Source of the DNA: Gemmatimonadaceae bacterium | GTDB taxonomy: Bacteria > Gemmatimonadota > Gemmatimonadetes > Gemmatimonadales > Gemmatimonadaceae | Direction of reading: 5' to 3' | DNA: 64,000 bases | NCBI GenBank assembly: GCA_045803545.1 | Contig: JBJMOW010000004.1 | Location: 736,001-800,000, forward strand | Shown: positions 1 through 53,338 of the stretch, piece by piece | How the letters are laid out: each line of letters starts with the position of its first letter | How positions within the stretch are numbered: the first letter of the stretch is position 1 | Position numbers and translations under genes: made by a program | The notes under the pieces: generated by a model | The model's input: only the letters and a program-made list of their open reading frames with translations | What the model was told of the DNA's origin: nothing | Database searches by the model: none

Positions 1-1332
1 GTCACCGTCGCGTGGTCTCCGGATGGGTCGCGGATCGCCTACCACGAGACAACGCCGGGCGATCCGATCTTCGTGGCGGACAGCAGCGGCCGAAATCCGC
101 GCCGGATCTTCATGTCGAATCCTGGCCTGCACAACCATTACGTATCGTGGTCGCCCGATGCACGCTTCATTTATTTCTCGCACGGGCTTCCGCCTGACGA
201 GATGGACATCTGGCGCGTTCCCTCCACCGGCGGACCCGCCGAGCGAATCACCAATCATGTTTCGAGAGTTGCGTATCCGGTGCTGCTGGACCCGCGCACG
301 CTTTTATACACGGCAACGGCGGAGGACGGAACTGGTCCGTGGCTTTACTCGATCGATGTCGATCAACGCGTGCCGCATCGCGTGACCGGAGGTGTCGAAC
401 ACTACATATCCCTCTCGGCGAGCGGAGAGATGCCCAACGGCGCGCGACGTGTGGTTGCTTCGGTTTCCAATCCCAGCGTGCAGTTGTGGAGCGTACCGAT
501 CACGGACGGCACTGTCGATGAAACGGCGGCTGCGCCAATTGCGTTGCCCACTGCCCGAGCTGCGGCTCCGCGCTTCGGACCTGATGCATCTCTATGGTAT
601 CTGGGCGCGCGCAGTGCCGGCGACGAGCTATGGCGACTGAGTGAATCCGGACCGAGTGTCGTGTGGAAATCCGCTCGCGGCGCCGTAATTGGAGCTGCGG
701 CTGTCTCGCCCGATGGCAAAACTGTCTGCTTCCCGCTGCGGGAGCCTGGTCAGCCGTCTGCGCTTTACTGCGGCAATTCCGACGGGACAGGAATGCGCGC
801 GGTCGCCGAGTCGCTGAATGTGAGGGGCGCGCCGTCCTGGTCTCCTGATGGTAAGTGGATCGCCATCGCCGCCGAGGAAGGAAGAGGATTGCGACTGTTC
901 AAGATTCCTGCTGAAGGCGGAAAGCCGTTGCGGCTCGTTGATTCCGTTGCGTCCAATCCTGTCTGGTCGCCCGACGGAACATTCATTCTTTATTCTGGAA
1001 CTCCGCGCGCGCGGAGCGCTCCCATAAAAGCAGTCACTCCTGACGGAAAACAGGCGGCGATGCCCTCGCTCGTGGTAGATCGTCGTGGCGATAGCTATCG
1101 CTTCCTTCCCGACGGCAAGCGCCTGGTGGTGAAGCAGGGAGGATTCCGTCGTCAGGATTTCTGGCTTTTCGATCTTGCGAGTGGGCGAGGCAGACAGCTC
1201 ACCAACCTCAAACCCGGCGAGTCGATTCAGCGCTTCGATGTCTCGCCGAATGGGAGGCGCATCGTTTTCGAGCGCGTGCGGGAGAATTCCGATATCGTGC
1301 TTTTCGAATTACCAGGCCGTGCCGATCGCTGA
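1..1332 (+). CDS. TolB-like PD40 beta-propeller protein, 5'-truncated by the window
   Basis: Frame is open from base 1 (VTVAWSPDGSRIAY...); repeated WSPDG/SPDG motifs. Confidence 0.85.
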   Translation, partial: VTVAWSPDGSRIAYHETTPGDPIFVADSSGRNPRRIFMSNPGLHNHYVSWSPDARFIYFSHGLPPDEMDIWRVPSTGGPAERITNHVSRVAYPVLLDPRTLLYTATAEDGTGPWLYSIDVDQRVPHRVTGGVEHYISLSASGEMPNGARRVVASVSNPSVQLWSVPITDGTVDETAAAPIALPTARAAAPRFGPDASLWYLGARSAGDELWRLSESGPSVVWKSARGAVIGAAAVSPDGKTVCFPLREPGQPSALYCGNSDGTGMRAVAESLNVRGAPSWSPDGKWIAIAAEEGRGLRLFKIPAEGGKPLRLVDSVASNPVWSPDGTFILYSGTPRARSAPIKAVTPDGKQAAMPSLVVDRRGDSYRFLPDGKRLVVKQGGFRRQDFWLFDLASGRGRQLTNLKPGESIQRFDVSPNGRRIVFERVRENSDIVLFELPGRADR

Positions 1333-1357
1333 GCCGCCGCTAATGTCGGCGGCTCAG
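1329..1357. terminator. Hairpin between convergent genes
   Basis: CTGAGCCGCCG-N7-CGGCGGCTCAG, 11-bp perfect stem, no U-tract. Confidence 0.5.
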
Positions 1358-1387
1358 TGAATTCACGCCATTAATGACGTCCATTCG

Positions 1388-2839
1388 TTATCGGATCGGC
1401 CAGGTTCCCCCAACCGACTTGTAAGCCGCGACTAGCGCTGTCGCCGCCGCTGTCCGACCGAACGCCAACTGATTCTCCGCTTCGAGGAGCGTACGCTCGG
1501 CGTCGAGCACCTGCAGGAAATCAGTCAAACCGGCCTCGAATCTTTGCTGGGCCAGGTCCGCGGCTCTTACGCTCGAACGTACCGCGCTCTCCAGAATCGA
1601 CAGTCGCGCGTGCGCGCGATCGTATGCGACGAGCGCTGATTGACTCTCGGCGAGCGCGCCAAGCACGGTCGCGTTGTATTCGGCCTGTGCTTCCTGCTGG
1701 CCGGCTGTCGCGATTTCTACACGCTCGCGCACCCGTCCAATGTCGAACAGCGGAAAACTCACAATGGGACCCAGCAGCAATCTCGAGTTGCCGCGCTTGA
1801 ATAGTGAATCGACAGTCGTCGAGGTATAGCCCATTCGCGCGCCAAGAGTCACTCGCGGCAGATACTCCGCGCGAGCGGCTCCCACGAACAATGAACGCGC
1901 CGCGTACAGCCGCTCCGCCTGCAGCACATCCGGCCGCTTGCGAACGAGTTCGCCCGGCGAGCCGACATAAAGCGTATCCGGCAACCGCGGCAGCGGTCCC
2001 GAATCGACCAGTGCCGCGGGTAATGCGTCCGGTGATTTTCCAAGCAGTACCGCTAACCGATTGCGATCGGCGGCGATCTCTGCTTCGAGACCCGGTGTCG
2101 CGGAGAGCGTCAGATAGAGAACCGACTTCGCGCGCTCGGTATCGAAAGCGGTTCCCCCGCCGGCTGCCAATCGGTCTTCGGTGAGCTTCACGATCTTCTG
2201 CTGATTTGTCGCGTTGCGCTGGGCGACTGCCAGCCGACGCTGTGCACCGCGCAGCTCGAAGTACGTGCGCGCGACCTCGGAAGCCACACTGATCTGCACA
2301 TCTTCGAGTCCATGCTGCGTCGACTCGACAAGCGCGCCCTGCGCCTGAACGTTTCTGTTCACGCGTCCGAAGAAGTCGACCTCCCACGATGCGTCGAAGC
2401 CGACGTCATAAAGGTTGTACGCGGGCAGCTGACTGCCGAGGCCGGGAGTTTGGGCCAGAGAATTCTGGAGCCGAGAAGTACTGCCGGTTCCTGTAACTGT
2501 TGGAACGAGATCGAGGCGACTCAAACGCCGGCTCGCGCGAGCGCCGCTGAGTCTGGACTCGGCAACACGCACGTCGAGATTTGCGCGCTGTGCTTCACCG
2601 ACGAGCGCGGTGAGAACACTGTCGCCGAGCGAAGTCCAGAACGGTGTTGCTGCAAGTGACTGGCTGATATGAACTGACTCGGCCGATCCGTATCCCCGCG
2701 CATCTGTCGTCGGCGCAGCGGCAACAGCAGCCGGGCGATTGACGTCATAAGCGGTCGGCACGGGAACTTCCGGCGCGCGATAAGCTGGCGAAGCGCATCC
2801 AAGCGCGGTCGCTCCGATCAGAATTGCAATATTACGCAT
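1388..2839 (-). CDS. RND efflux outer membrane lipoprotein (NodT/OprN family)
   Basis: Lipobox ALGC; ASWEVDFFGR and FLQVLDAER motifs; overlaps the permease stop. Confidence 0.92.
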   Translation of the reverse strand: MRNIAILIGATALGCASPAYRAPEVPVPTAYDVNRPAAVAAAPTTDARGYGSAESVHISQSLAATPFWTSLGDSVLTALVGEAQRANLDVRVAESRLSGARASRRLSRLDLVPTVTGTGSTSRLQNSLAQTPGLGSQLPAYNLYDVGFDASWEVDFFGRVNRNVQAQGALVESTQHGLEDVQISVASEVARTYFELRGAQRRLAVAQRNATNQQKIVKLTEDRLAAGGGTAFDTERAKSVLYLTLSATPGLEAEIAADRNRLAVLLGKSPDALPAALVDSGPLPRLPDTLYVGSPGELVRKRPDVLQAERLYAARSLFVGAARAEYLPRVTLGARMGYTSTTVDSLFKRGNSRLLLGPIVSFPLFDIGRVRERVEIATAGQQEAQAEYNATVLGALAESQSALVAYDRAHARLSILESAVRSSVRAADLAQQRFEAGLTDFLQVLDAERTLLEAENQLAFGRTAAATALVAAYKSVGGTWPIR

Positions 2840-5800
2840 GGGTACCACCTTCTCTCTCCACCGTCAGCTGCGGACGCCACGTATTGATTGGTTGAACATC
2901 ATCAGGAATTGCCACCGGCTTTTCGACTGGACGCTGAGCTCGCCTGTCGACGAGGCCACGAACCAGCGTATAGAACAGCGGCGTGAACACGAGCCCGAGG
3001 AAAGTCACGCCGAGCATGCCTGAGAACACGGCGATGCCCATGACACGTCGCATTTCCGCGCCGGCGCCGCTGGCGATGATGAGCGGCACCACGCCGGCGA
3101 TGAACGCGAAGGAAGTCATCAGAATCGGACGCAGACGAATCCGCGCTGCTTCGAGGGCCGCCGTGAATCGATCTCGACCTTGCCGCTCCAGGTCACGTGC
3201 GAACTCCACGATCAGAATCGCGTTCTTGCACGCGAGTCCGACGAGAACCAGCAATCCGATTTGAGTGAAGACATTGTTGTCGCCGCGCGTCAGCCATACT
3301 CCGGCGATCGCCGACACCAGACACATCGGAACGATCAGCACGATGACCAGCGGCAATGACCAGCTCTCGTACAGCGCAGCCAGTACCAGGAACACCAGCG
3401 CGATACAAAGCGGGAAGACGAAGATTGCCGTGTTGCCGGCGAGCTTCTGCTGATAGGTCAGCTCGGTCCACTCGTAGCCCATGCCATTGGGCAGCGTCTC
3501 GCTCGCCAACTGCTCCATCGTCTGCACCGCGGCACCGGCGCTGACGCCCGGCGCGGCGCTGCCGCTGATGTCTGCCGCCGGATAACCGTTGTAATGCGTC
3601 ACCTGATCGGGTCCATACGACTGCTTCACCGTGAGCACCGATCCGAGGGGGACCATCTCGCCGCGGACATTCCGTACCTTGAGCTCCGCGATGTTCTCGG
3701 CGCTCGAGCGATACGGCGCGTCGGCCTGCGCAATCACCTGGTAGGTGCGCCCGAACTTGTTGAAGTCGTTCACGTATTGCGATCCGAGATAGATCTGCAG
3801 CGTTGCGAATAAATCGTTGAGCCGGATGCCGAGCTGTTTCGCTTTGTCGCGATCGACATCGGCGTAGAGCTGAGGGACGTTGACCTGGAAACTCGAGAAC
3901 TGTCCTCCGAGCTTCGGAGTCTGGTATGTGCGACCAACCAACTGCTGGGTCATCGCGTAGAGCGTCGAGTCACCGAGGCCTGCTTTGTCCTCGACCATCA
4001 GCTTGAAACCGCCGATTGCGCCGAGTCCGTTGACTGCCGGCGGTGGGAAGACCGCGGTGAAACCCTCCTGAATGGCGGAGAATTTCTGGTTGAGCGCCAT
4101 CAGGATCGCGCCGCTCTTCAGCTCCTTGCTCTTTCTCTCTTCGAAAGGCTTGAGGCCGAAGAAGATGATGCCCGCGTTTGGCTTCGGACCGAACGAGCTA
4201 ATCGAAAGACCAGGGAATTCGACCGCGTGCTCCACGCCGGGTTGCTTGAGTGCAATGTCTGTCATCCGCCGGATGACCGCCTCGGTACGATCGAGTGAAG
4301 CGGCGTCAGGAAGCTGGGCGATGGCGACCAGATAGCGTTTGTCCTGACTGGGTACGAATCCTTTCGGCACTCTCGCGAATCCCAGAATGCCGAGGAGAAC
4401 TAGCGCGCCATAAACGGCGAGCGCTGCCACCTTGCGGCGACGTACAGTCTGGACTGCTTTTCCGTAACCCGCCGAGCCGCGTTTGAAAACGCGATTGAAC
4501 GGACCGAACGCCCAACCCAACAAACGATTCATAACGCGAGTTGGTGCGTCCTCGGGAGCGCCGCGCGGCTTCAGGAGTATCGCCGCGAGCGCGGGAGACA
4601 ACGTAAGTGAGTTGAACGCCGAGATGAGCGTCGAGAACGCGATGGTGAGCGCGAACTGCCGGTAGAACTGTCCATCGAGGCCGCTGATGAACGCGACGGG
4701 CACGAAGACCGCAGACAGAACCAGCGCGATGGCGATGATGGGACCGCTTACTTCATCCATCGCGCGGTGGCTTGCCTCGAGCGGCGACAGCCCTTCTTCG
4801 ATATGGCGCTCGACGTTTTCGACGACGACGATCGCATCGTCGACCACGATTCCGATCGCCAGCACCAGTCCGAACAGCGACAGAGTGTTGATCGAGAATC
4901 CGGTGGCGAGCATGACGGCGAAGGTGCCGACGATCGAAATCGGGACTGCGGCAAGCGGGATGATCGAAGCTCGCCACGTCTGCAGGAACAACACGACGAC
5001 GATCACGACCATCAACACGGCGAGGAGGAGGGTATAGATGACTTCGCGAATCGAGTCGCGTACGAACAGCGTCGGATCGTAAACCGACGACCACTCCACG
5101 CCTTGTGGGAAGCGCGTCTTGAGCTCGGCCATCTTCGAGCGAATTCCGCTCGATAGGGAGAGCGCATTGGACCCCGGCGCCTGGAAGACGACGATTGCAA
5201 CCGCAGACTTGTTGTCGAGCAGAGCGCGCAATCCGTAAGTGCTGGGACCGAGCTCGATGCGGGCGACGTCGCGGAGGCGGGTGACCTGTCCGTCGGTCCC
5301 CGTCTTGACGATGATGTTGCCGAATTCGCCCTCGTCGGCGAGCCGGCCATGCGCGTTCACCGTCAGCTGGTAGGCGACGGGATCATTCGTTGGCGGCGCA
5401 CCGACGGTCCCCGCCGCGACCTGGACGTTCTGCTCACGAATCGCCTGGATCACATCGCCCGCGGACAGGCCGTGTGATGCGACTTTGTTCGGATCCATCC
5501 AGATTCGCATCGCGTAATCGCCGGCACCGAAGACGAATACCTGACCGGCGCCCGGGATGCGCGCCAGATCGTTGCGAATGTTGAGCAGCGCGTAATTGCG
5601 CAGATATGTCGGATTGTAGCGCCCGTCTGGTGAGAACAGGTGCACCACCATCGTGATGTCGGGCGAGCGCTTCTGGGTGATGACGCCGATCTGCCGAACT
5701 TCGTCGGGCAATCTCGCCAGCGCCTGTGAGACGCGGTTCTGAACCTGGACTTGCGCCAGGTCGACGTTGGTGCCGATCTCGAAGGTCACCGTGAGATTGA

Positions 5801-6068
5801 CGGTGCCATCAGCGGTGGAGGACGACGCCATGTACAGCATGTGCTCGACGCCGTTGATGGCGTCCTCCAGCGGCGTAGCAACCGTCTGAGCGAGCACCGT
5901 CGGATTTGCGCCCGGATATACGGCGGTGACGGTGATCGTCGGCGGTGTTACTTCCGGATATTCGCTGACTGCCAGGCTGCGCGCGGCGATAATACCGCCG
6001 GCGAGAATCACCAGCGAGATTACAATCGCAAAGATCGGCCGGTCTATGAAAAAGCGTGAAAAGCGCAC
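2832..6068 (-). CDS. HAE1 RND efflux permease, MexF-like
   Basis: 1078 aa; FFIDRPIFA, GIVVDDAIVVVENVER, RLRPILMTS. Confidence 0.96.
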   Translation of the reverse strand: MRFSRFFIDRPIFAIVISLVILAGGIIAARSLAVSEYPEVTPPTITVTAVYPGANPTVLAQTVATPLEDAINGVEHMLYMASSSTADGTVNLTVTFEIGTNVDLAQVQVQNRVSQALARLPDEVRQIGVITQKRSPDITMVVHLFSPDGRYNPTYLRNYALLNIRNDLARIPGAGQVFVFGAGDYAMRIWMDPNKVASHGLSAGDVIQAIREQNVQVAAGTVGAPPTNDPVAYQLTVNAHGRLADEGEFGNIIVKTGTDGQVTRLRDVARIELGPSTYGLRALLDNKSAVAIVVFQAPGSNALSLSSGIRSKMAELKTRFPQGVEWSSVYDPTLFVRDSIREVIYTLLLAVLMVVIVVVLFLQTWRASIIPLAAVPISIVGTFAVMLATGFSINTLSLFGLVLAIGIVVDDAIVVVENVERHIEEGLSPLEASHRAMDEVSGPIIAIALVLSAVFVPVAFISGLDGQFYRQFALTIAFSTLISAFNSLTLSPALAAILLKPRGAPEDAPTRVMNRLLGWAFGPFNRVFKRGSAGYGKAVQTVRRRKVAALAVYGALVLLGILGFARVPKGFVPSQDKRYLVAIAQLPDAASLDRTEAVIRRMTDIALKQPGVEHAVEFPGLSISSFGPKPNAGIIFFGLKPFEERKSKELKSGAILMALNQKFSAIQEGFTAVFPPPAVNGLGAIGGFKLMVEDKAGLGDSTLYAMTQQLVGRTYQTPKLGGQFSSFQVNVPQLYADVDRDKAKQLGIRLNDLFATLQIYLGSQYVNDFNKFGRTYQVIAQADAPYRSSAENIAELKVRNVRGEMVPLGSVLTVKQSYGPDQVTHYNGYPAADISGSAAPGVSAGAAVQTMEQLASETLPNGMGYEWTELTYQQKLAGNTAIFVFPLCIALVFLVLAALYESWSLPLVIVLIVPMCLVSAIAGVWLTRGDNNVFTQIGLLVLVGLACKNAILIVEFARDLERQGRDRFTAALEAARIRLRPILMTSFAFIAGVVPLIIASGAGAEMRRVMGIAVFSGMLGVTFLGLVFTPLFYTLVRGLVDRRAQRPVEKPVAIPDDVQPINTWRPQLTVEREGGTHA

Positions 6069-6092
6069 GTGAGTTTTCCGAAAAGAGTCTGA

Positions 6093-7271
6093 CTAGCGAG
6101 CGGCAGGTGCTTGGGTCGCAGTTTCGGCGACCATTGCGGCGTTGGTGGCGGCGACCTTCATCCCCGGCCGCACGCGCATCAACCCATTGATCACAACGCG
6201 TTCGCCCGGTTTGAGGCCGCTGTCGATGATGCGAAGTCCATCGAACACGCGTCCGATGGTAATCGGCCGGTACTCCACCGTCGTGTCGTTCTTGAGAACG
6301 AGCACGAACTTGCGGTCCTGATCGGTGCCGACGGCCTGATCCTGGATCAGCGTCGCGTTGTGGCGATCGGTGCCAAGCAACCTGACGCGCGCGAAGAGAC
6401 CCGGCGCGAAGAGCTGATTCGGATTGGAGAGCACCGCGCGGGCGCGGATCGTCCCCGCGGTTCCGTCGACGCGGTTGTCGATGAAGTTCAGCCTGCCCTG
6501 GTGCGGATAGCCGCTTTCATTGGCCAGTCCGACCAGCACCTCTCGGCCGTTCGGTCCGGCGAAAGCACCCGCGTACTTCAGGTATGCCTGTTCGTCGGTG
6601 TCGAAGTACACATAGATCGGATCCAGGGAGACGATAGTGGTGAGCAGCGTCGGCGTCGGCGCGCCACCCTGCACGACATTTCCTCTGGTGATCTCGGCGC
6701 GGCCAACACGACCGGAAATCGGTGCGCGCACAACGGTCCATTCGAGATTGAGGCGCGCGACCTGCAGCGCCGCTTCGGCGCCGTGGATCGCTGCGTCGCT
6801 CTCCGCGCGGCTGCTGGTCCGCGAATCGAGCTCCTCGCGCGAGATCGCCTGGGTGTTTACCAGCTTCTGCGCGCGGTCGGCTTCCATGTCGGCAAGCTGC
6901 TTGCGAGTCCGAGCCTGGGCAAGAACCGCTTCCGCTCTGGCGACTTCAGCCTGATACGGCCGCTGGTCGATGACGAACAGAACGTCACCCTGATGTACGG
7001 TCGTGCCTTCGGTGAATGCGACGCGGTCGATGAATCCACCGACGCGCGGACGCACCTCAACGGAATTCACCGCCTCGAAGTGTCCGGTGAACTCGTCCCA
7101 GTCGGTGACGACTCTTTCGATTGCAGGCGCAACCGTCACCTGCGGCGTCGGCATCTGCGGCGCATCCTTGCGACAAGCTGCGGTAGCGAGAACGAAGACA
7201 GCGGCGGCAGTCCAGCCACCGGGGTGAATTCTGAGCGAGGCCGAATGGGCGCGGGAGAGAGTGGAACTCAT
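6093..7271 (-). CDS. RND periplasmic adaptor (MFP), MexE-like
   Basis: VEVRPRVGG, VRAPISGRVG, lipobox ATAC; ATG at 7271 has a GGAG RBS. Confidence 0.92.
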   Translation of the reverse strand: MSSTLSRAHSASLRIHPGGWTAAAVFVLATAACRKDAPQMPTPQVTVAPAIERVVTDWDEFTGHFEAVNSVEVRPRVGGFIDRVAFTEGTTVHQGDVLFVIDQRPYQAEVARAEAVLAQARTRKQLADMEADRAQKLVNTQAISREELDSRTSSRAESDAAIHGAEAALQVARLNLEWTVVRAPISGRVGRAEITRGNVVQGGAPTPTLLTTIVSLDPIYVYFDTDEQAYLKYAGAFAGPNGREVLVGLANESGYPHQGRLNFIDNRVDGTAGTIRARAVLSNPNQLFAPGLFARVRLLGTDRHNATLIQDQAVGTDQDRKFVLVLKNDTTVEYRPITIGRVFDGLRIIDSGLKPGERVVINGLMRVRPGMKVAATNAAMVAETATQAPAAR

Positions 7272-7329
7272 GTTGCAAGACTCCGTGACGGTAAACCGAA
7301 ACTGGTGGCGATAATCTGCGGGGGCTGAT

Positions 7330-7393
7330 ATGTTACCGGTCGGTAACATGGCGCGCGCACCCCGATGTTACCGATCGGTAACATTTTTGTCAA
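7330..7393. promoter_or_regulatory. Two 20-bp TetR operators overlapping the efflux promoter
   Basis: ATGTTACCGGTCGGTAACAT (7330-7349) and perfect palindrome ATGTTACCGATCGGTAACAT (7365-7384); minus-strand TTGACA(7393-7388)-17-TAACAT(7370-7365). Confidence 0.85.
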
Positions 7394-7411
7394 GCGCGGG
7401 TACAATCTGTT

Positions 7412-8056
7412 ATGCAAACAGATATTCAGAAGAACGGCAGAAAAACGAAAGGGAAACGCAGCGAACGGTTGCCCGTGCGTGAGCGTATCCTCGTCGCCGC
7501 CGGCGATCTGTTTCATAAACAAGGCATCCGCGGGGTAGGCGTGGAGGCGATCGCGGAAGCGGCTGATACCAACAAGATGACGCTCTACCGTCACTTCGAC
7601 TCGAAGGACGAGCTCATCGCCGAGTGGGTGCGGGGAATGATCGCACACAAAGAGGATGAATGGAGCGATCTGACCGCCCATCACCACGGCGATCCACAGG
7701 GGCTGCTTCAGGACTGGAGTCGGCGGACCGCCGCCAAGCTCAAGGTCATGGAGGAGCGCGGCTCCGCGCTGGGGAACGCGCTCGCCGAGCTTCCTGACCC
7801 GGAGCATCCGGCGCGGCGTGTCATTCAGGAGTACAAGGCCCGAGAGCATAAGCGAGTCGTACGACTCTGCAAGGCCGCTGGTTTCCAGAATCCGGATCTC
7901 GCCGCCAATCTGTTCTGGATGCTGCTGGAAGGGGCGCACTCGTGTGTTCAGTGCGTCGGGATGCGCAAGTTCGGAGAGCATCTGGTGCAGCTCGTCGACC
8001 TGATGGTCGAAAACGCCAAGCAGCAAGAACGTGCTCCTTATCCGACTGCTCTCTGA
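7412..8056 (+). CDS. TetR/AcrR family transcriptional regulator
   Basis: HTH GVEAIAEAADTNKMTLYRHFDSKDEL; divergent from the pump. Confidence 0.93.
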   Translation: MQTDIQKNGRKTKGKRSERLPVRERILVAAGDLFHKQGIRGVGVEAIAEAADTNKMTLYRHFDSKDELIAEWVRGMIAHKEDEWSDLTAHHHGDPQGLLQDWSRRTAAKLKVMEERGSALGNALAELPDPEHPARRVIQEYKAREHKRVVRLCKAAGFQNPDLAANLFWMLLEGAHSCVQCVGMRKFGEHLVQLVDLMVENAKQQERAPYPTAL

Positions 8057-8195
8057 TCCATCTTTCGCTCGCCTCACAATAGATCGTCGTTCGGGCGCCC
8101 CCTGAATCGACATCGATTTGCAAGGATTTCTGACCCGCCGATCATTTGCGCCAAAAGGGCGATGAATTTTACGGCACCATTACAAGCGTTTTCTA

Positions 8196-8224
8196 TTGAC
8201 GGTCGCTGGCCCGGCCCATATCGT
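8196..8224 (+). promoter_or_regulatory. Sigma70-type promoter for a leaderless transcript
   Basis: TTGACG(8196-8201)-17-TATCGT(8219-8224), ATG 6 nt downstream, no SD. Confidence 0.65.
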
Positions 8225-8230
8225 CACCCA

Positions 8231-8329
8231 ATGACTTGTTTCCGCTTTGTCGTCTGCTGCTGCACCGCGGCGTGCGCGCCGGCCACCTGCGCGTGTCCGT
8301 GCTGCACCCGGTGTTGTGACGCGACATAG
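8231..8329 (+). CDS. Cys-rich leader peptide (putative attenuator)
   Basis: MTCFRFVVCCCTAACAPATCACPCCTRCCDAT*, 11 Cys in 32 aa; below the ORF-track cutoff. Confidence 0.8.
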   Translation: MTCFRFVVCCCTAACAPATCACPCCTRCCDAT

Positions 8330-8353
8330 CGGCTGACATCTGCTCTCGCGCAC

Positions 8354-8388
8354 GCCCCGGGCTCTCCAGGTCCGGGGTTTTTTGTTTT
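8354..8388 (+). terminator. Intrinsic terminator (attenuator) upstream of the carbonic anhydrase
   Basis: GCCCCGGGCT-CTCCA-GGTCCGGGGT followed by TTTTTGTTTT, ending 22 nt before the ATG at 8411. Confidence 0.85.
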
Positions 8389-8410
8389 ACCACTCTCCAA
8401 AGGACAGGTT

Positions 8411-9058
8411 ATGTCGAAAGTACTGGACGAAGTTCTCTCCGCGAACGCTGAGTACGTCAGCTCATTCGGATCGAAGGGCAACCTCGCTCTTCCACCCGCG
8501 CGTCGCTTCGCAATTCTCACCTGCATGGACGCCCGACTCGATCCCGCGAAGTACGCCGGACTCAGTGAGGGCGATGCACACGTAATTCGCAACGCCGGCG
8601 GCCGCGCCAGCGACGATGCCATCCGCTCATTGGTGATCTCCTACAAACTGCTCGGCACGCGCGAGTGGTTCGTCGTTCATCACACCAACTGCGGGATGGA
8701 ATTCTTTACCGATGAAGTGATACGGGGCCTTCTTTCGAACAGCCTCGAGACAGCAGAGCTCGGCGCCCAGGGTTTCCGCGATGTCGGCAAAGGACCGGGA
8801 TCAGCGGAAGCCCAGTTCATCGACTGGCTGACGATCAAGAACACGAGGCAGGCGGTGGTGGACGATGTCGCCCGGATTCGGCAGCACCCGCTCGTCCCGA
8901 AGAACATTCCGGTCTACGGCTACGTCTACGAGGTGAAGACCGGCAAGCTGGTAGAAGTCGAAGAGGCTACCCGCGCGGGTCGAGCCGAGGAGGCGCCGCG
9001 AGCGGTTCTAGCGGCTGACGTCAAGGTCCCGATTCAGGAGTCTGCGCTCAGTAACTGA
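8411..9058 (+). CDS. Beta-class carbonic anhydrase, clade D (COS hydrolase-like)
   Basis: CMDARLD, IRNAGGR, HHTNCGM Zn ligands, [11 protein letters not shown]. Confidence 0.92.
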
Positions 9059-29116: not shown

Positions 29117-30148
29117 TCATCGAGCGATGAACGCGCGAGTGGCAACGGCGACCCGCCTCTGCTCGCAAAAGATCATGATGTGACCGCACCTGCTGGCGAT
29201 CGACAAGGTGTCCGCGCGCACCAATTTCGCGAACTCAGCCATCGCGTCGGGCGTTACCATATGGTCGTCCCAGGAATAGACAGCGAGCATTGGCGCCCGC
29301 ACTCTCGCCGCTGCTCGCCGGATGTCTCCGTAATCGCCGGCAAGGTCATACCGCCTTAGGGCGGCAATCTGTGCAGCATAGTCGTCCAGGTCCCACGTCT
29401 GGTAGTTGCTTGCGTTCCCTGCGATGTCATGTGCAACGCTGTCCGTACCCCGCGCGTCGAGCCCGAGTGGCGTCACGATGAACAGCATTTCAGTGCGAGC
29501 GAGTCGCGGCCACAGGGAGTCGGGAGGTATGCGAGCTCGTCGCCCATCAGCGATTTGCTCGAGCATCGCGGTCAGGGCTAACCGATTGAAGGTCCCAACG
29601 CGCGGCGTTCCGGCGATCGGTATCGTCTTGTCGATGAATGTGGGATATCGAACCGCCCATTCGATAGCTTGCATTCCGCCCATCGAAAACCCAATGACGG
29701 CTCGCAGATGACGGATACCGAGCCTCTCCGTCAGCATACGATACTGCGCCTCAACCATATCACCGATTGTGAGATCGTCGAACGCCGAGCGGGCGGTAGG
29801 AGCGGTGTTCGATGGCGATGAGGAGCGTCCGTCCGCGAGTGCGTCCACTACCATTACATAGAAGCGCGTCGTGTCGACGAGTGCGTCCGTGGTGAGAAAT
29901 GAGTGCCAATCTTCCGAGCGGCCGAGCAGCCAGGTCGGAATAAGCACGACGTTATCCCGCGCCGCATTCAATTTTCCGTAAGCGCGATACGCGACGCGGC
30001 AATCTGGTACGACTGCGCCGCTACTAAAGCGACAGTCGCCGACGGATACAACGGTGACGGCCGGGACCTGCGCTCGGACTGTCCACGGCACGAACGCGCT
30101 CGCGAGCGGAGCGACGAAGCCAGCGAGCACCGCGATTCGTTTGCACAT
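29117..30148 (-). CDS. Alpha/beta hydrolase, MetX (homoserine acyltransferase)-like, with signal peptide
   Basis: YGKLNAARDNVVL, GFSMGGMQA, C-terminal GH. Confidence 0.85.
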   Translation of the reverse strand: MCKRIAVLAGFVAPLASAFVPWTVRAQVPAVTVVSVGDCRFSSGAVVPDCRVAYRAYGKLNAARDNVVLIPTWLLGRSEDWHSFLTTDALVDTTRFYVMVVDALADGRSSSPSNTAPTARSAFDDLTIGDMVEAQYRMLTERLGIRHLRAVIGFSMGGMQAIEWAVRYPTFIDKTIPIAGTPRVGTFNRLALTAMLEQIADGRRARIPPDSLWPRLARTEMLFIVTPLGLDARGTDSVAHDIAGNASNYQTWDLDDYAAQIAALRRYDLAGDYGDIRRAAARVRAPMLAVYSWDDHMVTPDAMAEFAKLVRADTLSIASRCGHIMIFCEQRRVAVATRAFIAR

Positions 30149-49321: not shown

Positions 49322-51097
49322 CTACCAAGCCGGCATATGGAATAGCCTGCCAGAATCGTCTACGTCATGCAGGCGGAGAATTATCTCTTCCTCGCCGAAA
49401 GATATGCGTTCGCCACGCGCATCCACGGGAAGCTCGGCATCGATGACCGTGATAATGTGTTGGGTTCCGACGCTCGCATACGCGCGAATAGTGTCTAGCA
49501 GGTTGAGTTTCTTCCGGTCATCTAACGTCTCCAAGACCCCATCATGGTAAACGAAATGCGGATATTTGCGGCTCGAATAGGTTCGCAGCATTGCCATATC
49601 AAACGCAATACATAAAAGACGACCGTACGAAAAGCCTTCAGCCGCGCTGGTTGGCTGTCCCTCGGAGTCGACTATCTCTGCATGAAAATCCGGGTGACCT
49701 TCCTTGTTGACCTCAGTGTACATGTTGCCATGACGCCCGATGACGCGAAATACCACGTCGTCGAGCGAGCGCCTGATGTCCCCATACACACCTTCAGTTT
49801 GAACTAGAGATCTTTCCAACCTGGCCTGCGTGGCCAGCTTCTCGGCTTCAAGTTCTCGAATCGCTTGGCGTATAGCGAGCAGTTCCTCGACTGACTTCTG
49901 TCTGAGGCGAAGGATCTCAAATTCTGCCTGTCGATGAGATAGCCTACGGGTCAACGCCTTATACGAGGCTATCGCCTCAGCGTTGCTTAGGCTTTGGAGG
50001 GCCTCAGTACGCTTCTCGTTAAGGTTACTTAGCTCCGCCTCTAGGTCACGTGCCTTGGCGTCAAGTTCCGAAAGCTCATCGCGCAGGTAGCCGTCCCGCT
50101 CTTCGACAAGCTCCTTATTAAAACGTTCCAAGGCGCTGTAGTCTCTTCTGATTTGTTCACCGAAATAGATGTTAGCCTGCGCGAAAATCGACTCCAGCGT
50201 TTGAAGATTTACTGAGATTCGCTGTTCAAGGGCGCCTATGATGCGCGCTTTATCCGTTTCGACTGCGTAACGCTCGTCGTTGAGAACAGCGATTTGTTTA
50301 TCGACATCGCCGACAAGCGCTCGCGTAGTGCGGGCTTCTGAAGGGCCCAAGTTGAAATCCGCGAGTTCTTTGCTCAGCTGCTCCACATCCCTCTGTGCGA
50401 TCTCGACTACCCCGCGCACTTGGTCCAGAGTCTCGGAGCCCCCTGCGGTGTTTCGCAGGGACTTCGCTAGCGCGAGCTGCTCTTCGATGGTCGCCTCTAT
50501 GTCGTAAATACGACTCACCAACTCTGAATCCAAACCGAGGATGTGTGCCAAGAACGGTTTCCACTCCGCATGTTTCCCGACATGCTTGGAGAGCCGGAAG
50601 GGATCGTCGTAATCACTCTGCGTCCGTAAAGCATAAGCGAGTGCGTTACGGTAGGACCAAGGCTTCACCACATCTAAATCAAGGGCCGCGTCGAGAAGTT
50701 CACGCGCCTTCTCGAAAGGAACGGCCCAGTGTGTCCACTGATCATCAGCGGCTAAGGACCAGTCGCGGATCTGATCAGTATGGTATGCGAACGCCGGCTT
50801 ACTCGATTCAGAGACAGATCTCCGAACCGTCATGTACGAGCCTTCTTGTAGCTGGATTTCAAGAAAGAACACGAACGGCTGAAATTGTTCATGCTGAAAC
50901 AAGAAGAACGTCGGCGATCGCTTTTTCACCAGACAAAAGTCGATCAGTTGCGCCAGCAGTGATTTGCCGAGGTTGTGAGTGTCGCGTTCGCGAAGTTGTG
51001 GCTTCAGCACCTTGCCGAGGACAACGTTCAAGCCGTCTCTGAACTCAATGGGCGTAAAGAGGGAGGGACTATTTGAGTAGAGCCGACGGAGCTTCAT
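49322..51097 (-). CDS. lmuB: Lamassu/ABC-3C SMC-like ATPase (DUF2326-type)
   Basis: Walker A-like THNLGKS, long coiled coil, FVYHDG..E.LD.RKK C-terminus. Confidence 0.82.
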   Translation of the reverse strand: MKLRRLYSNSPSLFTPIEFRDGLNVVLGKVLKPQLRERDTHNLGKSLLAQLIDFCLVKKRSPTFFLFQHEQFQPFVFFLEIQLQEGSYMTVRRSVSESSKPAFAYHTDQIRDWSLAADDQWTHWAVPFEKARELLDAALDLDVVKPWSYRNALAYALRTQSDYDDPFRLSKHVGKHAEWKPFLAHILGLDSELVSRIYDIEATIEEQLALAKSLRNTAGGSETLDQVRGVVEIAQRDVEQLSKELADFNLGPSEARTTRALVGDVDKQIAVLNDERYAVETDKARIIGALEQRISVNLQTLESIFAQANIYFGEQIRRDYSALERFNKELVEERDGYLRDELSELDAKARDLEAELSNLNEKRTEALQSLSNAEAIASYKALTRRLSHRQAEFEILRLRQKSVEELLAIRQAIRELEAEKLATQARLERSLVQTEGVYGDIRRSLDDVVFRVIGRHGNMYTEVNKEGHPDFHAEIVDSEGQPTSAAEGFSYGRLLCIAFDMAMLRTYSSRKYPHFVYHDGVLETLDDRKKLNLLDTIRAYASVGTQHIITVIDAELPVDARGERISFGEEEIILRLHDVDDSGRLFHMPAW

Positions 51098-51330
51098 GGG
51101 CCGACGTATTCAATCGCGTCTGCTTTCCGACGGTAGGCAATCAAACCAAGCAGGAACAGCGTATGAAGCGCTGGGACGATAAGGGGGTCGACCTCAGCCC
51201 GAGTATTGTTAAGCCTGAGTCGCAAGTCCGTTAAGCTCACGATGCGTTGACTTCGGACGAGCTGTAGAGCATTCGCCGCGACTGGAACGACTGTCAGAGA
51301 AGGATCGGAGTGTTTATTCGGCCGCAGCAT
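51094..51330 (-). CDS. lmuC: Lamassu/ABC-3C middle component
   Basis: 78 aa MLRPNKH...LFLLGLIAY; overlaps both neighbours. Confidence 0.78.
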   Translation of the reverse strand: MLRPNKHSDPSLTVVPVAANALQLVRSQRIVSLTDLRLRLNNTRAEVDPLIVPALHTLFLLGLIAYRRKADAIEYVGP

Positions 51331-52264
51331 CGCTGGTTCCAATATCGCAGTTCCAATACATGTAATACAGCACAAGCTTAGTAAGTCGCTTTTTACTTCT
51401 GAGGTCGCCATCGCGTTCAAAAAGCAAGTTCTGAATGCGTACTAGAACTTTATCGAACGTGTCGTGGTCTGCGCGATGCGCGACTATCTGATCATGCAGC
51501 TCGGCCGCCGCGTCCAAGTATCGTTGAAGAACGGCGTCGTTTGCTGGGAGAGCCAAGAATCGCTTTATCTTATCGAAATCCTTCAGGTACTTTGACGTAA
51601 TCAGTTTGGCAAAATCTTCGGAAAGGCCATTTTCAGCGTTTTTTTGGCGGAACGATACCCTCTCAAGTTCGTCCACCTCTTCTGTTGCCGCGCTGAACAC
51701 GTCCCTGTCGCGATCGAGCGCAGTGATGGTCTCGGCCAAGTCATCAGGATTTATTAACAGCGGAGCATTTAAGATCTTGACATCAGCCGTGGTCGCAATC
51801 GTTGGGTGGCGCTTTAAGAGGACATCCATTCGCTCAACTCCAAACAACTCCACCCTTGTTACTCCTGTTTCGTTCAAAATTCGCTGCCTGATCTGCGAAT
51901 CAGAGACGCCGGCCAACCGTCGGTTCGAAAACAACATGTAGTTTTGAAGTTCACCTTGATTGACGAGGTTCCTAATCCTAGGGATCTCTTTAGACAGTAC
52001 CGAGCTATCTGTCTGCCCGGAAAAATCTGTGTCGCTGAATTTTCCAACTGGATTTTCAGTGTGTTTCGCCTGAACAACGAACTTTCCCGAGAGTGGAGCA
52101 TTCTCGCTTGGAAACCTGCTAGCGGTTCCTTCAAAGCGGGCGTCCCGACCGCCGTCTGGTCCAGTCGAAAACGGCTGAACACCATCACCGAGAATTTCGA
52201 AACACGTTGCGACGACGATGCGTTCAAAGGAGTCCGATGTCGCATCAAAGTAGGGCACTCTCAA
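51314..52264 (-). CDS. lmuA: Lamassu/ABC-3C effector: Mrr-like PD-(D/E)xK nuclease plus CTD
   Basis: FE...GPDGGRD...VVQAKH; C-terminal YMYWNCDIG. Confidence 0.8.
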   Translation of the reverse strand: MRVPYFDATSDSFERIVVATCFEILGDGVQPFSTGPDGGRDARFEGTASRFPSENAPLSGKFVVQAKHTENPVGKFSDTDFSGQTDSSVLSKEIPRIRNLVNQGELQNYMLFSNRRLAGVSDSQIRQRILNETGVTRVELFGVERMDVLLKRHPTIATTADVKILNAPLLINPDDLAETITALDRDRDVFSAATEEVDELERVSFRQKNAENGLSEDFAKLITSKYLKDFDKIKRFLALPANDAVLQRYLDAAAELHDQIVAHRADHDTFDKVLVRIQNLLFERDGDLRSKKRLTKLVLYYMYWNCDIGTSDAAAE

Positions 52265-52352
52265 GCTTTTAGCTCCAAGTCAGGCGAAACTCTGATCCAT
52301 CGCCGATTTCTATACCCCAACCTCCGACAAGCCCTCATTTGCTGCAATTATC

Positions 52353-52538
52353 TCATAGGTGGCCTGCCGCTTCACAACGCCGAAGGTTTTCCTTAGCATT
52401 GCCGCCACAGCTTCTATCGATCCTCTGGGCGATTTCCGCCGTTGAATGATCGGGGGGTGGATTTACCGCATGCGTCTCAGTCCGGACGGCGGCAAATTCA
52501 ACGGCCGCGACGGATTTAGATCGTCTTGCCAATGTCAC
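52353..52538 (-). CDS. Possible small HTH-like protein
   Basis: ATGA overlap with the upstream gene; STAEIAQRIDRS...ENLRRCEAAGHL. Confidence 0.3.
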   Translation of the reverse strand: MTLARRSKSVAAVEFAAVRTETHAVNPPPDHSTAEIAQRIDRSCGGNAKENLRRCEAAGHL

Positions 52539-53338
52539 GGCGATAGCGATTTCTTGCCTGCTTCGATAAGAAGTTGCTTTCCGATCTCCGCCGTGGTCGT
52601 TTTGAGGAGCTTAGCGTTCTCGGGGTCGTTGAAAAAGGAGGAAAGTCGAACCATGACGCTCCCTGCGAATCCTGGCTTCTTGAGTGACTCCACCGTTCCT
52701 TTAAGGGTCTCGATCTCTTTGTGGAGTTGGTCGGCTTTCCGCCGAAGCTCCTTTTGATTGGCATCCGCGCTCTCGAGCTGCGCGAGCAGGTTAGTTTCTA
52801 GCTCATCGAGTTTGCGGCGCATCTCGGCCGCCTCTTCCTTGGTAAAATATTCATCCTCGAGAGTATCAAATTGGGAGAGCATCTCACTGATGGCTTTACT
52901 CTGTTCGGAGATCTGCCGCATCACAGGAGGAGCGACCAGATCCTCTAGAACTCGGTTAGCCCATTCTTGAATCGTGCCGCTTAGGTGATACGTCGAAACC
53001 GTGCCAGATTCTCGTTGCGCTACTGATCCAGGTGCCGCCATGTACGAAAAGTCGGATCCTGCGTTGGCCTTTACCGAAAGTCGGAAGAAGAAGCGCGAGT
53101 CGAATCTATAGGAAATCGTAAGAGTCGTCGTGCCCTCCTTCTCCGTCTGATCGAAGGTGAACTCCTCGACGGAAAATTTGCTACGCTCAAGGCTTTCACG
53201 AATTGACGAAATGATCTTGTCTCTTAACACCGGGTCCCTGCCGAGTAGTGGGCCAAAGTCATGGTAGATTCGCCCGATCGGAGTCTCGTCCAAACTTCCT
53301 ACAGGGTGCAAAAGGGCGAAATGTCTATTTTGTATCAT
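52535..53338 (-). CDS. Hypothetical protein with C-terminal coiled coil
   Basis: 267-aa ORF in the AT-richer island; start uncertain. Confidence 0.7.
   Translation of the reverse strand: MIQNRHFALLHPVGSLDETPIGRIYHDFGPLLGRDPVLRDKIISSIRESLERSKFSVEEFTFDQTEKEGTTTLTISYRFDSRFFFRLSVKANAGSDFSYMAAPGSVAQRESGTVSTYHLSGTIQEWANRVLEDLVAPPVMRQISEQSKAISEMLSQFDTLEDEYFTKEEAAEMRRKLDELETNLLAQLESADANQKELRRKADQLHKEIETLKGTVESLKKPGFAGSVMVRLSSFFNDPENAKLLKTTTAEIGKQLLIEAGKKSLSP

What the first reader, a model, noticed from the sequence alone, without database searches (positions are those of the whole stretch)
8411..9058. Clade-D beta-carbonic anhydrase as a candidate COS-scavenging sulfur-acquisition enzyme
Seen: CMDAR / RNAGG / HHTNCGM clade-D signature, directly behind the Cys leader. 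Known: clade D includes Thiobacillus thioparus COS hydrolase and the CS2 hydrolases, which release H2S. M. tuberculosis Rv1284 lies beside cysD-cysNC. Inference: control by cysteine limitation makes little sense for CO2 hydration but fits hydrolysis of COS to H2S for cysteine synthesis. This would be regulatory evidence for trace-gas sulfur assimilation in a heterotroph.
Basis: partly seen in the sequence, partly recalled or inferred. Interest (0 to 1): 0.82.

Follow-up and report, generated by a model that had tools for sequence, protein, structure and literature searches.

The report
Cysteine-gated carbonic anhydrase, likely COS scavenger
A soil bacterium in which no sulfate-reduction genes were found keeps a spare carbonic-anhydrase-type gene behind a tiny cysteine-rich reading frame and a transcription stop signal, so it likely makes the enzyme only when cysteine runs short, probably to release sulfide from the gas carbonyl sulfide.

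Summary
Observation confirmed. 8411-9058 encodes a Cab-type (clade D) beta-carbonic anhydrase with all zinc ligands. It sits behind a predicted leaderless 32-codon ORF with 11 Cys, a predicted antiterminator and a terminator. A fixed rule finds such leaders before 30 of 148 homologues, against 2 of 2300 genes of this genome. In named genomes they occur only in Gemmatimonadota and Acidobacteriota. The genome has a separate housekeeping beta-CA, no detectable sulfate reduction, and a second Cys/Met leader on metY-metX, the sulfide-fixing step. Other homologues sit beside metY/metX, ssuA, tauD, sbp or rhodanese. So a link to sulfur status is well supported. COS hydrolysis is inferred, not shown: no sequence feature separates COS hydrolases from other clade-D enzymes, and the nearest structures are generic clade-D CAs. 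A rough estimate says ambient air COS (500 ppt) would need months to decades per cell quota, so local COS is the likelier source. COS assimilation by a heterotroph is already published for a fungus; my searches found no paper on bacterial cysteine control of such an enzyme. This scan reported the same arrangement before, on other DNA (four notes).

The parts
8196..8224 (+). Predicted sigma-70-type promoter TTGACG-17-TATCGT; spacing puts the start of transcription at or next to the leader ATG (predicted leaderless mRNA)
   Evidence: the same spacing is seen before homologous leaders
8231..8329 (+). Leader ORF, 32 codons, 11 Cys (runs CCC, CC, CC)
   Evidence: conserved in kind in relatives
8307..8361 (+). 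Predicted antiterminator helix: the 3' end of the leader (CCCGG at 8307-8311) pairs with the 5' arm of the terminator
   Evidence: -27.4 kcal/mol with the ribosome footprint on a middle Cys codon, -4.9 with it on the stop codon
8354..8387 (+). Intrinsic terminator: 10-pair stem (7 G-C) and U-run
8411..9058 (+). Clade-D (Cab-type) beta-carbonic anhydrase, 215 aa; Zn ligands C38, H91, C94, dyad D40-R42; insertion of about 15-20 aa around residues 109-135; low-confidence tail 197-215

Best explanation
This is a clade-D beta-carbonic anhydrase behind a cysteine-rich leader ORF and terminator that likely act as a cysteine-sensing attenuator, and the enzyme likely hydrolyses carbonyl sulfide to H2S for cysteine and methionine synthesis. 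Shown: promoter-like site, 11-Cys leader, terminator, intact Zn site, and a second Cys/Met leader on metY-metX. Also shown: cysK, CBS-like and CGL-like genes are present, and no sulfate-reduction genes were found. Predicted: with ample Cys-tRNA the ribosome runs to the leader stop, covers 8307-8311, and the terminator forms; with little Cys-tRNA it stalls on the Cys codons, the antiterminator forms, and the gene is transcribed. Inferred: Zn-bound hydroxide attacks COS to give CO2 and H2S, and MetY (released by the same kind of switch) or CysK fixes the sulfide. The useful COS is more likely locally raised soil COS (ppb-ppm) than background air. Odds: attenuator about 0.93; enzyme serves sulfur supply about 0.75; COS is the main substrate about 0.55.
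For: Leader enrichment by one fixed rule: 14 of 78 GTDB loci and 16 of 70 metagenome loci, against 2 of 2300 own-genome ORFs (one is this gene) and 4 of 568 neighbouring ORFs. Within 3 kb upstream: 40 of 160 loci, against 5 of 160 on the opposite strand. Among 34 leaders, 21 have a terminator by rule. In all 21 the predicted antiterminator comes from the 3' end of the ORF, with different complementary sequences in the two lineages (CCGG/CCGG type versus GTGGGC/GCCCAC type). The organism uses this device elsewhere: a Phe/Tyr leader before a pheA-like gene and a Cys/Met leader before metY-metX, kept in 3 of 3 relatives in which metY was found. A second, Can-like beta-CA exists for CO2. No PF01507, PF01077 or PF01747 match in a 93% complete genome, with controls ringing. 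Neighbours of homologues: metY/metX (L052, L061), ssuA (L062), ssuD-like (L004), tauD (L037), sbp (L142), rhodanese (L132, L153), methanethiol oxidase (L042). A shorter clade-D CA lies between metY and metX in 4 of 6 order-level relatives, and behind metY in a fifth. Clade-D COSases are known, and one supports growth on COS (PMC10880591). Both CafC gate leucines are present (L27, L81).
Against: There are no activity data. No sequence or tunnel feature separates COSases from CO2-active clade-D enzymes (PMC12035519, section 17). Structure matches to 3VQJ (Z 16.0, rmsd 3.2, 168 aligned) and 3TEN (Z 16.5, rmsd 6.7, 160 aligned) are weaker than to 3LAS (Z 19.0, rmsd 2.0, 165), CafC, 5ZTP and Rv1284. 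None of the 54 of 80 GTDB homologues outside the two phyla passed the leader rule, and family members L189-L191 showed no leader (L189 has only 157 nt upstream). Lack of sulfate reduction is family-wide (69 of 80), while the gene is rare (7 of 200; 6 of 24 in the genus), so that lack does not predict the gene. 11 of 18 leader-bearing genomes do have PF01507. Some neighbours fit other roles: SulP (L165, L169, L174, L187), CobW (L149, L167), peroxiredoxins and redoxins. No thiocyanate-hydrolase-like COS source was found in the genome (but its control was empty). Kin are not independent: the leader label needs only 4 changes on a quick tree, and some loci are near-duplicates.
Confidence: 0.55

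Rival explanations
1. It is an ordinary CO2/bicarbonate hydrase, switched on by cysteine shortage as part of a thiol- or oxidative-stress response (pH control, bicarbonate supply, or a stand-in for the housekeeping CA).
For: Clade-D Rv1284 is described as having high CA activity (PMC12035519). The nearest structures are annotated as CAs. SulP transporters, often bicarbonate partners (recalled), follow 4 of the metagenome homologues. Redoxins or peroxiredoxins share operons with it in several Acidobacteriota-like loci.
Against: A separate Can-like CA is present. There is no known bicarbonate need in cysteine or homocysteine synthesis (own knowledge). Placement inside metY-metX and beside ssuA, tauD and sbp fits sulfide supply better. 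The CafC gate leucines linked to low CO2 activity are kept.
Confidence: 0.2
2. It is a sulfur-scavenging hydrolase, but its real substrate is CS2 or another thiocarbonyl (thiocarbamate or dithiocarbamate breakdown products, or COS made inside the cell), not environmental COS.
For: For residues 82-190 the best PDB sequence hit is CS2 hydrolase 3TEN, whose insertion aligns with this one (E 1.3e-11 against 2.6e-11 for the next, effectively a tie). Known COSases also hydrolyse CS2 slowly (PMC12035519). Ambient COS is too dilute to matter quickly.
Against: The two positions recalled as the CS2-hydrolase FF motif are L80-L81, invariant in 44 of 44 aligned sequences. The whole-chain match to 3TEN is poorer. 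No internal COS source was identified.
Confidence: 0.15
3. The Cys-rich peptide is a metal-binding product or zinc sensor, and the CA is controlled by Zn rather than by Cys-tRNA.
For: The peptide has 11 Cys, the enzyme needs Zn, and CobW lies upstream in 2 metagenome loci.
Against: Peptide sequence and length (14-36 aa) are not conserved; only Cys codons and RNA pairing are. The same design controls metY, and a Phe/Tyr version precedes pheA.
Confidence: 0.05

Closest known systems
COS hydrolases of Trichoderma harzianum and Gloeophyllum trabeum, and COS assimilation in T. harzianum (PMC10880591, PMC12035519, PMC8209446)
   Same: Clade-D Cab-type beta-CA with the same Zn ligands and Cab-type residues (here L27, H57, I76); heterotroph; proposed COS-to-sulfide entry into sulfur metabolism.
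   Different: Bacterial. The fungal activity is described as constitutive, whereas this gene sits behind a Cys leader. It carries an insertion absent from CafC-like enzymes. Activity here is untested.
Thiobacillus thioparus COSase (3VQJ) and Acidianus CS2 hydrolase (3TEN)
   Same: Same clade and fold (Z about 16; 39% and 32% identity in the structural alignment).
   Different: Those serve sulfur oxidisers for energy; here the regulation points to assimilation. They are not the nearest structures. The recalled FF motif is absent.
Rv1284 (1YLK), S. mutans CA (3LAS), A. fumigatus CafC (6JQC), G. antarctica CA (5ZTP)
   Same: Nearest sequences and structures (41-49% identity, Z 18-19).
   Different: They are shorter by about 15-20 aa in the 109-135 region. 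I found no Cys attenuator described for them in the papers searched.
Mycobacterial polycysteine leaderless sORF attenuators, Ms5788A (bioRxiv 10.1101/834739)
   Same: Leaderless short ORF with consecutive Cys codons controlling sulfur genes; rhodanese partners recur in related loci.
   Different: Ms5788A acts on translation by hiding the Shine-Dalgarno site, whereas here there is an intrinsic terminator and antiterminator. Other phyla. 'Anhydrase' does not occur in that paper's main text (its Table 1 is an image and its supplements are closed).
Classical his/trp/phe leader-peptide transcription attenuators (recalled)
   Same: Regulatory codons upstream, antiterminator arm at the 3' end of the ORF, terminator with U-run.
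   Different: Senses cysteine, is predicted leaderless, and controls a lone enzyme outside the biosynthetic operon.

Membership tests
beta-carbonic anhydrase | Cys-x-Asp-x-Arg and His-x-x-Cys zinc site | tested here: met
   C38, D40, R42, H91 and C94 are invariant in 44 of 44; PF00484 over the cut-off
clade D / Cab type | Non-plant-type residues at the Gln/Phe/Tyr positions; closest to Cab-type enzymes | tested here: met
   L27, H57 and I76 correspond to M25, H55 and I73 of ThCOSase (PMC12035519) through the CafC alignment; the top 11 structure rows are Cab-type
clade D / Cab type | Placement in subclade beta-D2, which holds the validated COSases (PMC13098186) | not testable with these tools
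COS hydrolase | High COS hydrolysis with low CO2 hydration | not testable with these tools
   Needs an assay; no diagnostic residues are known (PMC12035519 section 17)
COS hydrolase | Extra loop G150-P158 of T. thioparus COSase | tested here: inconclusive
   3VQJ has about 20 more residues over the matched span; this protein has its own insertion, modelled as a hairpin plus helix; fungal COSases lack the loop
CS2 hydrolase | FF motif just before the GT of the strand leading to His-x-x-Cys (feature recalled, not read in a paper here) | tested here: not met
   L80-L81 at these positions, invariant
leader-peptide transcription attenuator | Short ORF rich in the sensed amino acid | tested here: met
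   11 Cys of 32 codons; enrichment over background
leader-peptide transcription attenuator | Terminator plus mutually exclusive antiterminator using the ORF's 3' end | tested here: met
   Predicted in the window and in 21 of 34 leaders; at full-length equilibrium the terminator wins at every stall site in the window, so the switch must be co-transcriptional
leader-peptide transcription attenuator | Leader is translated and output falls with cysteine | not testable with these tools
   RNA contigs give no strand, start or level
mycobacterial polycysteine leaderless sORF attenuator | Leaderless start and at least two consecutive Cys codons | tested here: met
   ATG 7 nt after the -10 box (start site predicted, not mapped); CCC, CC, CC
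mycobacterial polycysteine leaderless sORF attenuator | Control of translation by Shine-Dalgarno sequestration without a terminator (Ms5788A) | tested here: not met
   An intrinsic terminator is present; 13 of 34 related leaders lack one by rule and may work this way

The most novel reading that the evidence does not exclude
A widespread, highly conserved clade-D subfamily (70-80% identity across many phyla) is a dedicated bacterial sulfur-fixation enzyme. It has been wired repeatedly to sulfur starvation (Cys leaders, metY-metX operons, ssu/tau clusters) and lets slow-growing soil bacteria draw maintenance sulfur from atmospheric COS. The soil COS sink would then be regulated by microbial sulfur status.
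Probability: 0.2. Interest if true: 0.87.

Novelty: new variant of a known kind. Interest (0 to 1): 0.62.

Why it matters
Clade-D beta-CAs dominate CA expression in soil and track soil COS uptake (PMC6330096), but why heterotrophic bacteria make them is open. A cysteine-sensing switch on the gene gives a reason and a direct test. If right, bacterial COS uptake should rise under sulfur limitation, which bears on the use of COS as a tracer of photosynthesis, and Gemmatimonadota and Acidobacteriota join the list of COS consumers. It also extends cysteine attenuation to two more phyla and to a terminator-based form.

Tried and rejected
Rfam on 18 loci, including this one: 0 matches at gathering score, so no known riboswitch. 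Equilibrium folding of the whole leader was not significant (z -1.5) and keeps the terminator at all stall sites; only the co-transcriptional model shows the switch, and part of its energy drop is trivial because fewer bases are free. Soil metatranscriptome contigs identical to the CA 5' part occur in 3 of 4 runs laid (X1 8359-8599, X3, X4; a fourth with 3 differences). But the runs were chosen with this gene, other parts of the window are covered too, and no contig meets the 31-nt rule for bridging the terminator: no inference on expression. The search for a thiocyanate hydrolase had an empty control. 'Lack of sulfate reduction explains the gene' was rejected as a general rule. A pair count on the leader alignment was not obtained; per-sequence folding was used instead. 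The flanking tetR, RND efflux and PAS genes are not conserved neighbours and were rejected as parts of the system. Paper searches with no relevant hit.

Full report
Observation. The ORF at 8411-9058 (+) encodes 215 aa with CMDAR (38-42), RNAGG (60-64) and HHTNCGM (90-96). It passes Pfam PF00484. Nine of its ten PDB sequence hits are Cab-type enzymes, led by 5ZTP, CafC, Rv1284 and 3LAS, then COSase 3VQJ (E 2e-29) and CS2 hydrolase 3TEN (E 3e-28). An AlphaFold model (mean pLDDT 84.5) ranks the same way: 3LAS Z 19.0, CafC 18.4-18.6, 5ZTP 18.3, Rv1284 17.9, 3TEN 16.5, 3VQJ 16.0, other clades 15.2 or less. The organism is a Gemmatimonadaceae bacterium by its nearest named homologues; this is inferred.

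The leader. A TTGACG-17-TATCGT site ends at 8224, 7 nt before an ATG at 8231 that opens 32 codons with 11 Cys. A 10-pair hairpin with a U-run follows at 8354-8387. With a ribosome footprint on a middle Cys codon and the transcript ending in the hairpin loop, CCCGG at 8307-8311 pairs with the terminator's 5' arm (-27.4 kcal/mol). With the footprint on the stop codon that helix is lost (-4.9). At full-length equilibrium the terminator always wins in the window, so the model needs co-transcriptional folding, as for classical attenuators (own knowledge).

Conservation and controls. The rule was promoter, start, 8-45 codons, and at least 3 Cys or CC. It finds a leader before 14 of 78 GTDB homologues (2 of 80 dropped for short upstream DNA) and 16 of 70 metagenome homologues (10 of 80 dropped). 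Background is 2 of 2300 long ORFs of this genome (one is this gene) and 4 of 568 other ORFs in those loci, 3 of which lie upstream of the CA on its strand. Within 3 kb upstream the count is 40 of 160, against 5 of 160 on the opposite strand. By record title: 5 of 5 Gemmatimonadota, 13 of 21 Acidobacteriota (4 more by eye) and 0 of 54 others. The rule may miss other promoter types. The loci are the best 80 of 600 scanned matches in each collection, include near-duplicates, and are not independent; the label needs 4 changes on a quick tree. Of 34 leaders, 21 have a terminator by rule, all with the antiterminator arm inside the ORF and with different complementary sequences in the two lineages; 13 have none by rule. 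Of three further same-genus loci, two gave a leader and L200 did not. More distant family members L189-L191 showed none.

Genome context. The genome (93% complete) has a second, Can-like beta-CA. No PAPS reductase/CysD, sulfite reductase or Sat-type sulfurylase was found, with controls ringing in 14, 11 and 5 of 14 genomes. No CysE passed the cut-off. It has cysK, a CBS-like and a CGL-like gene, metB, and metY-metX. metY-metX sits behind its own leader with 4 Cys and an internal Met plus a terminator (C4:1505822-1505920, minus). Such a leader is kept in 3 of 3 relatives where metY was found, of 5 searched. A Phe/Tyr leader before a pheA-like gene shows that the organism uses this device for amino-acid sensing (gene name recognised by eye). 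So the putative sulfide maker and the sulfide user carry the same kind of switch. Against over-reading: lack of PF01507 is the family norm (69 of 80), the CA is rare (8 of 251 in the phylum; 7 of 200 in the family; 6 of 24 in the genus), and 11 of 18 leader-bearing genomes have PF01507. The gene is accessory.

Neighbours of homologues. I scanned 222 same-strand neighbours of the 80 GTDB loci and 101 of the metagenome loci (many were shadow frames with no hit), then 21 picked proteins against NCBIfam. Sulfur-linked cases include metY/metX (L052, L061), ssuA (L062), ssuD-like (L004), tauD (L037, L045), sbp (L142), rhodanese (L132, L134, L153), YeiH-like (L025), cysS (L078) and methanethiol oxidase (L042). 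SulP (4 loci), CobW (2) and redoxins fit the rivals as well. No control set of other CAs was run, so this is a list, not an enrichment. A shorter clade-D type (about 53% identity) lies between metY and metX in 4 of 6 order-level relatives, read by eye from translations. A fifth, L089, has metY upstream but comes from G057, an unpublished genome; L089 was also one of the 44 rows behind the model. No conclusion depends on it.

Substrate. The sequence does not decide it. PMC12035519 (abstract and section 17 read) reports that fungal COSases lack the T. thioparus loop, that their tunnels resemble CO2-active Rv1284, and that the CafC gate residues are not the primary determinant. This protein keeps both gate leucines (L27, L81) and lacks the recalled FF motif of CS2 hydrolases. 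Its insertion aligns weakly with that of 3TEN. I estimated supply with a recalled solubility and sulfur quota and kcat/Km of 2e5-1e6. At 500 ppt COS one cell quota takes 88 to 8800 days for 1 mM to 10 uM enzyme; at 1 ppm it takes 0.04 to 4.4 days; the diffusion limit at 500 ppt is 2.5 days. Ambient air could at most cover maintenance.

Literature seen. PMC10880591: abstract, section 4 part 1 of 3, and the conclusion. It shows growth of T. harzianum, and of E. coli with its COSase, on COS far above ambient, and suggests the same for prokaryotes. bioRxiv 10.1101/834739: passages only; 'anhydrase' occurs 0 times in the main text, Table 1 is an image and the supplements are closed, so a CA in that regulon is not excluded. 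PMC13098186: passages and section 11. PMC6330096, PMC8209446 and PMC7308577: passages. Searches joining carbonic anhydrase with cysteine leaders, sulfur limitation, Gemmatimonadota or O-acetylhomoserine found nothing relevant (listings only); subscription papers are not covered. Earlier notes of this scan describe the same arrangement in four other genomes and a sulfide-cluster case. They are not independent support. My reading was written before I saw them.

Verdict. A real, conserved cysteine-type attenuator on a clade-D beta-CA. A sulfur-supply role is likely, COS as substrate is better than even, and ambient-air feeding is unlikely but not excluded. New variant of known parts; interest 0.62.

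Noticed in passing
G000:C4:1505822-1505920 (-), L098: Cys/Met-containing leader ORF with terminator and predicted antiterminator before metY-metX; conserved in L196-L198.
   Followed up: yes
G000:C2:10096-10167 (+): Predicted leaderless Phe/Tyr-rich leader with terminator before a pheA-like gene; it switches in the folding model.
   Followed up: partly
G000:C2:990600-990626 (-): Short ORF and terminator before a metH-like gene; no Cys or Met codons, so possibly another kind of leader.
   Followed up: no
L142, L165, L187 (54-188 nt upstream of the CA): Palindrome TAGT-N10-ACTA, recalled as Rrf2/CymR-like, before CA-sbp or CA-sulP; 5 of 153 CA upstream regions against 3 of 596 others.
   Followed up: partly
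L080:141-5930: A homologue sits inside a CO dehydrogenase-type cluster (coxL-like, coxG, CA, AAA, coxE) in a gammaproteobacterium.
   Followed up: no
L042:194-3450: A homologue directly precedes methanethiol oxidase and a MauG-like gene.
   Followed up: no
L153:1640-3582, L122, L183: Cys leaders head operons of rhodanese, or a membrane redoxin, followed by the CA.
   Followed up: partly
L084:1100-1500 and upstream of the CA in L086: Long GC-rich or terminator-ended 5' regions with no Cys leader and no Rfam match.
   Followed up: no
window 29117-30148 (-): MetX-like hydrolase with a signal-peptide-like N-terminus; only the N-terminal half matches TIGR01392.
   Followed up: no
window 49322-53338: Cluster with a long coiled-coil ATPase-like gene and a nuclease-like gene, recalled as resembling an ABC three-component system; not searched.
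   Followed up: no
window 8999-9055: A low-confidence C-terminal tail of about 20 aa; most of the closest homologues are 214-219 aa long, while the wider subfamily ends near 193 aa.
   Followed up: no
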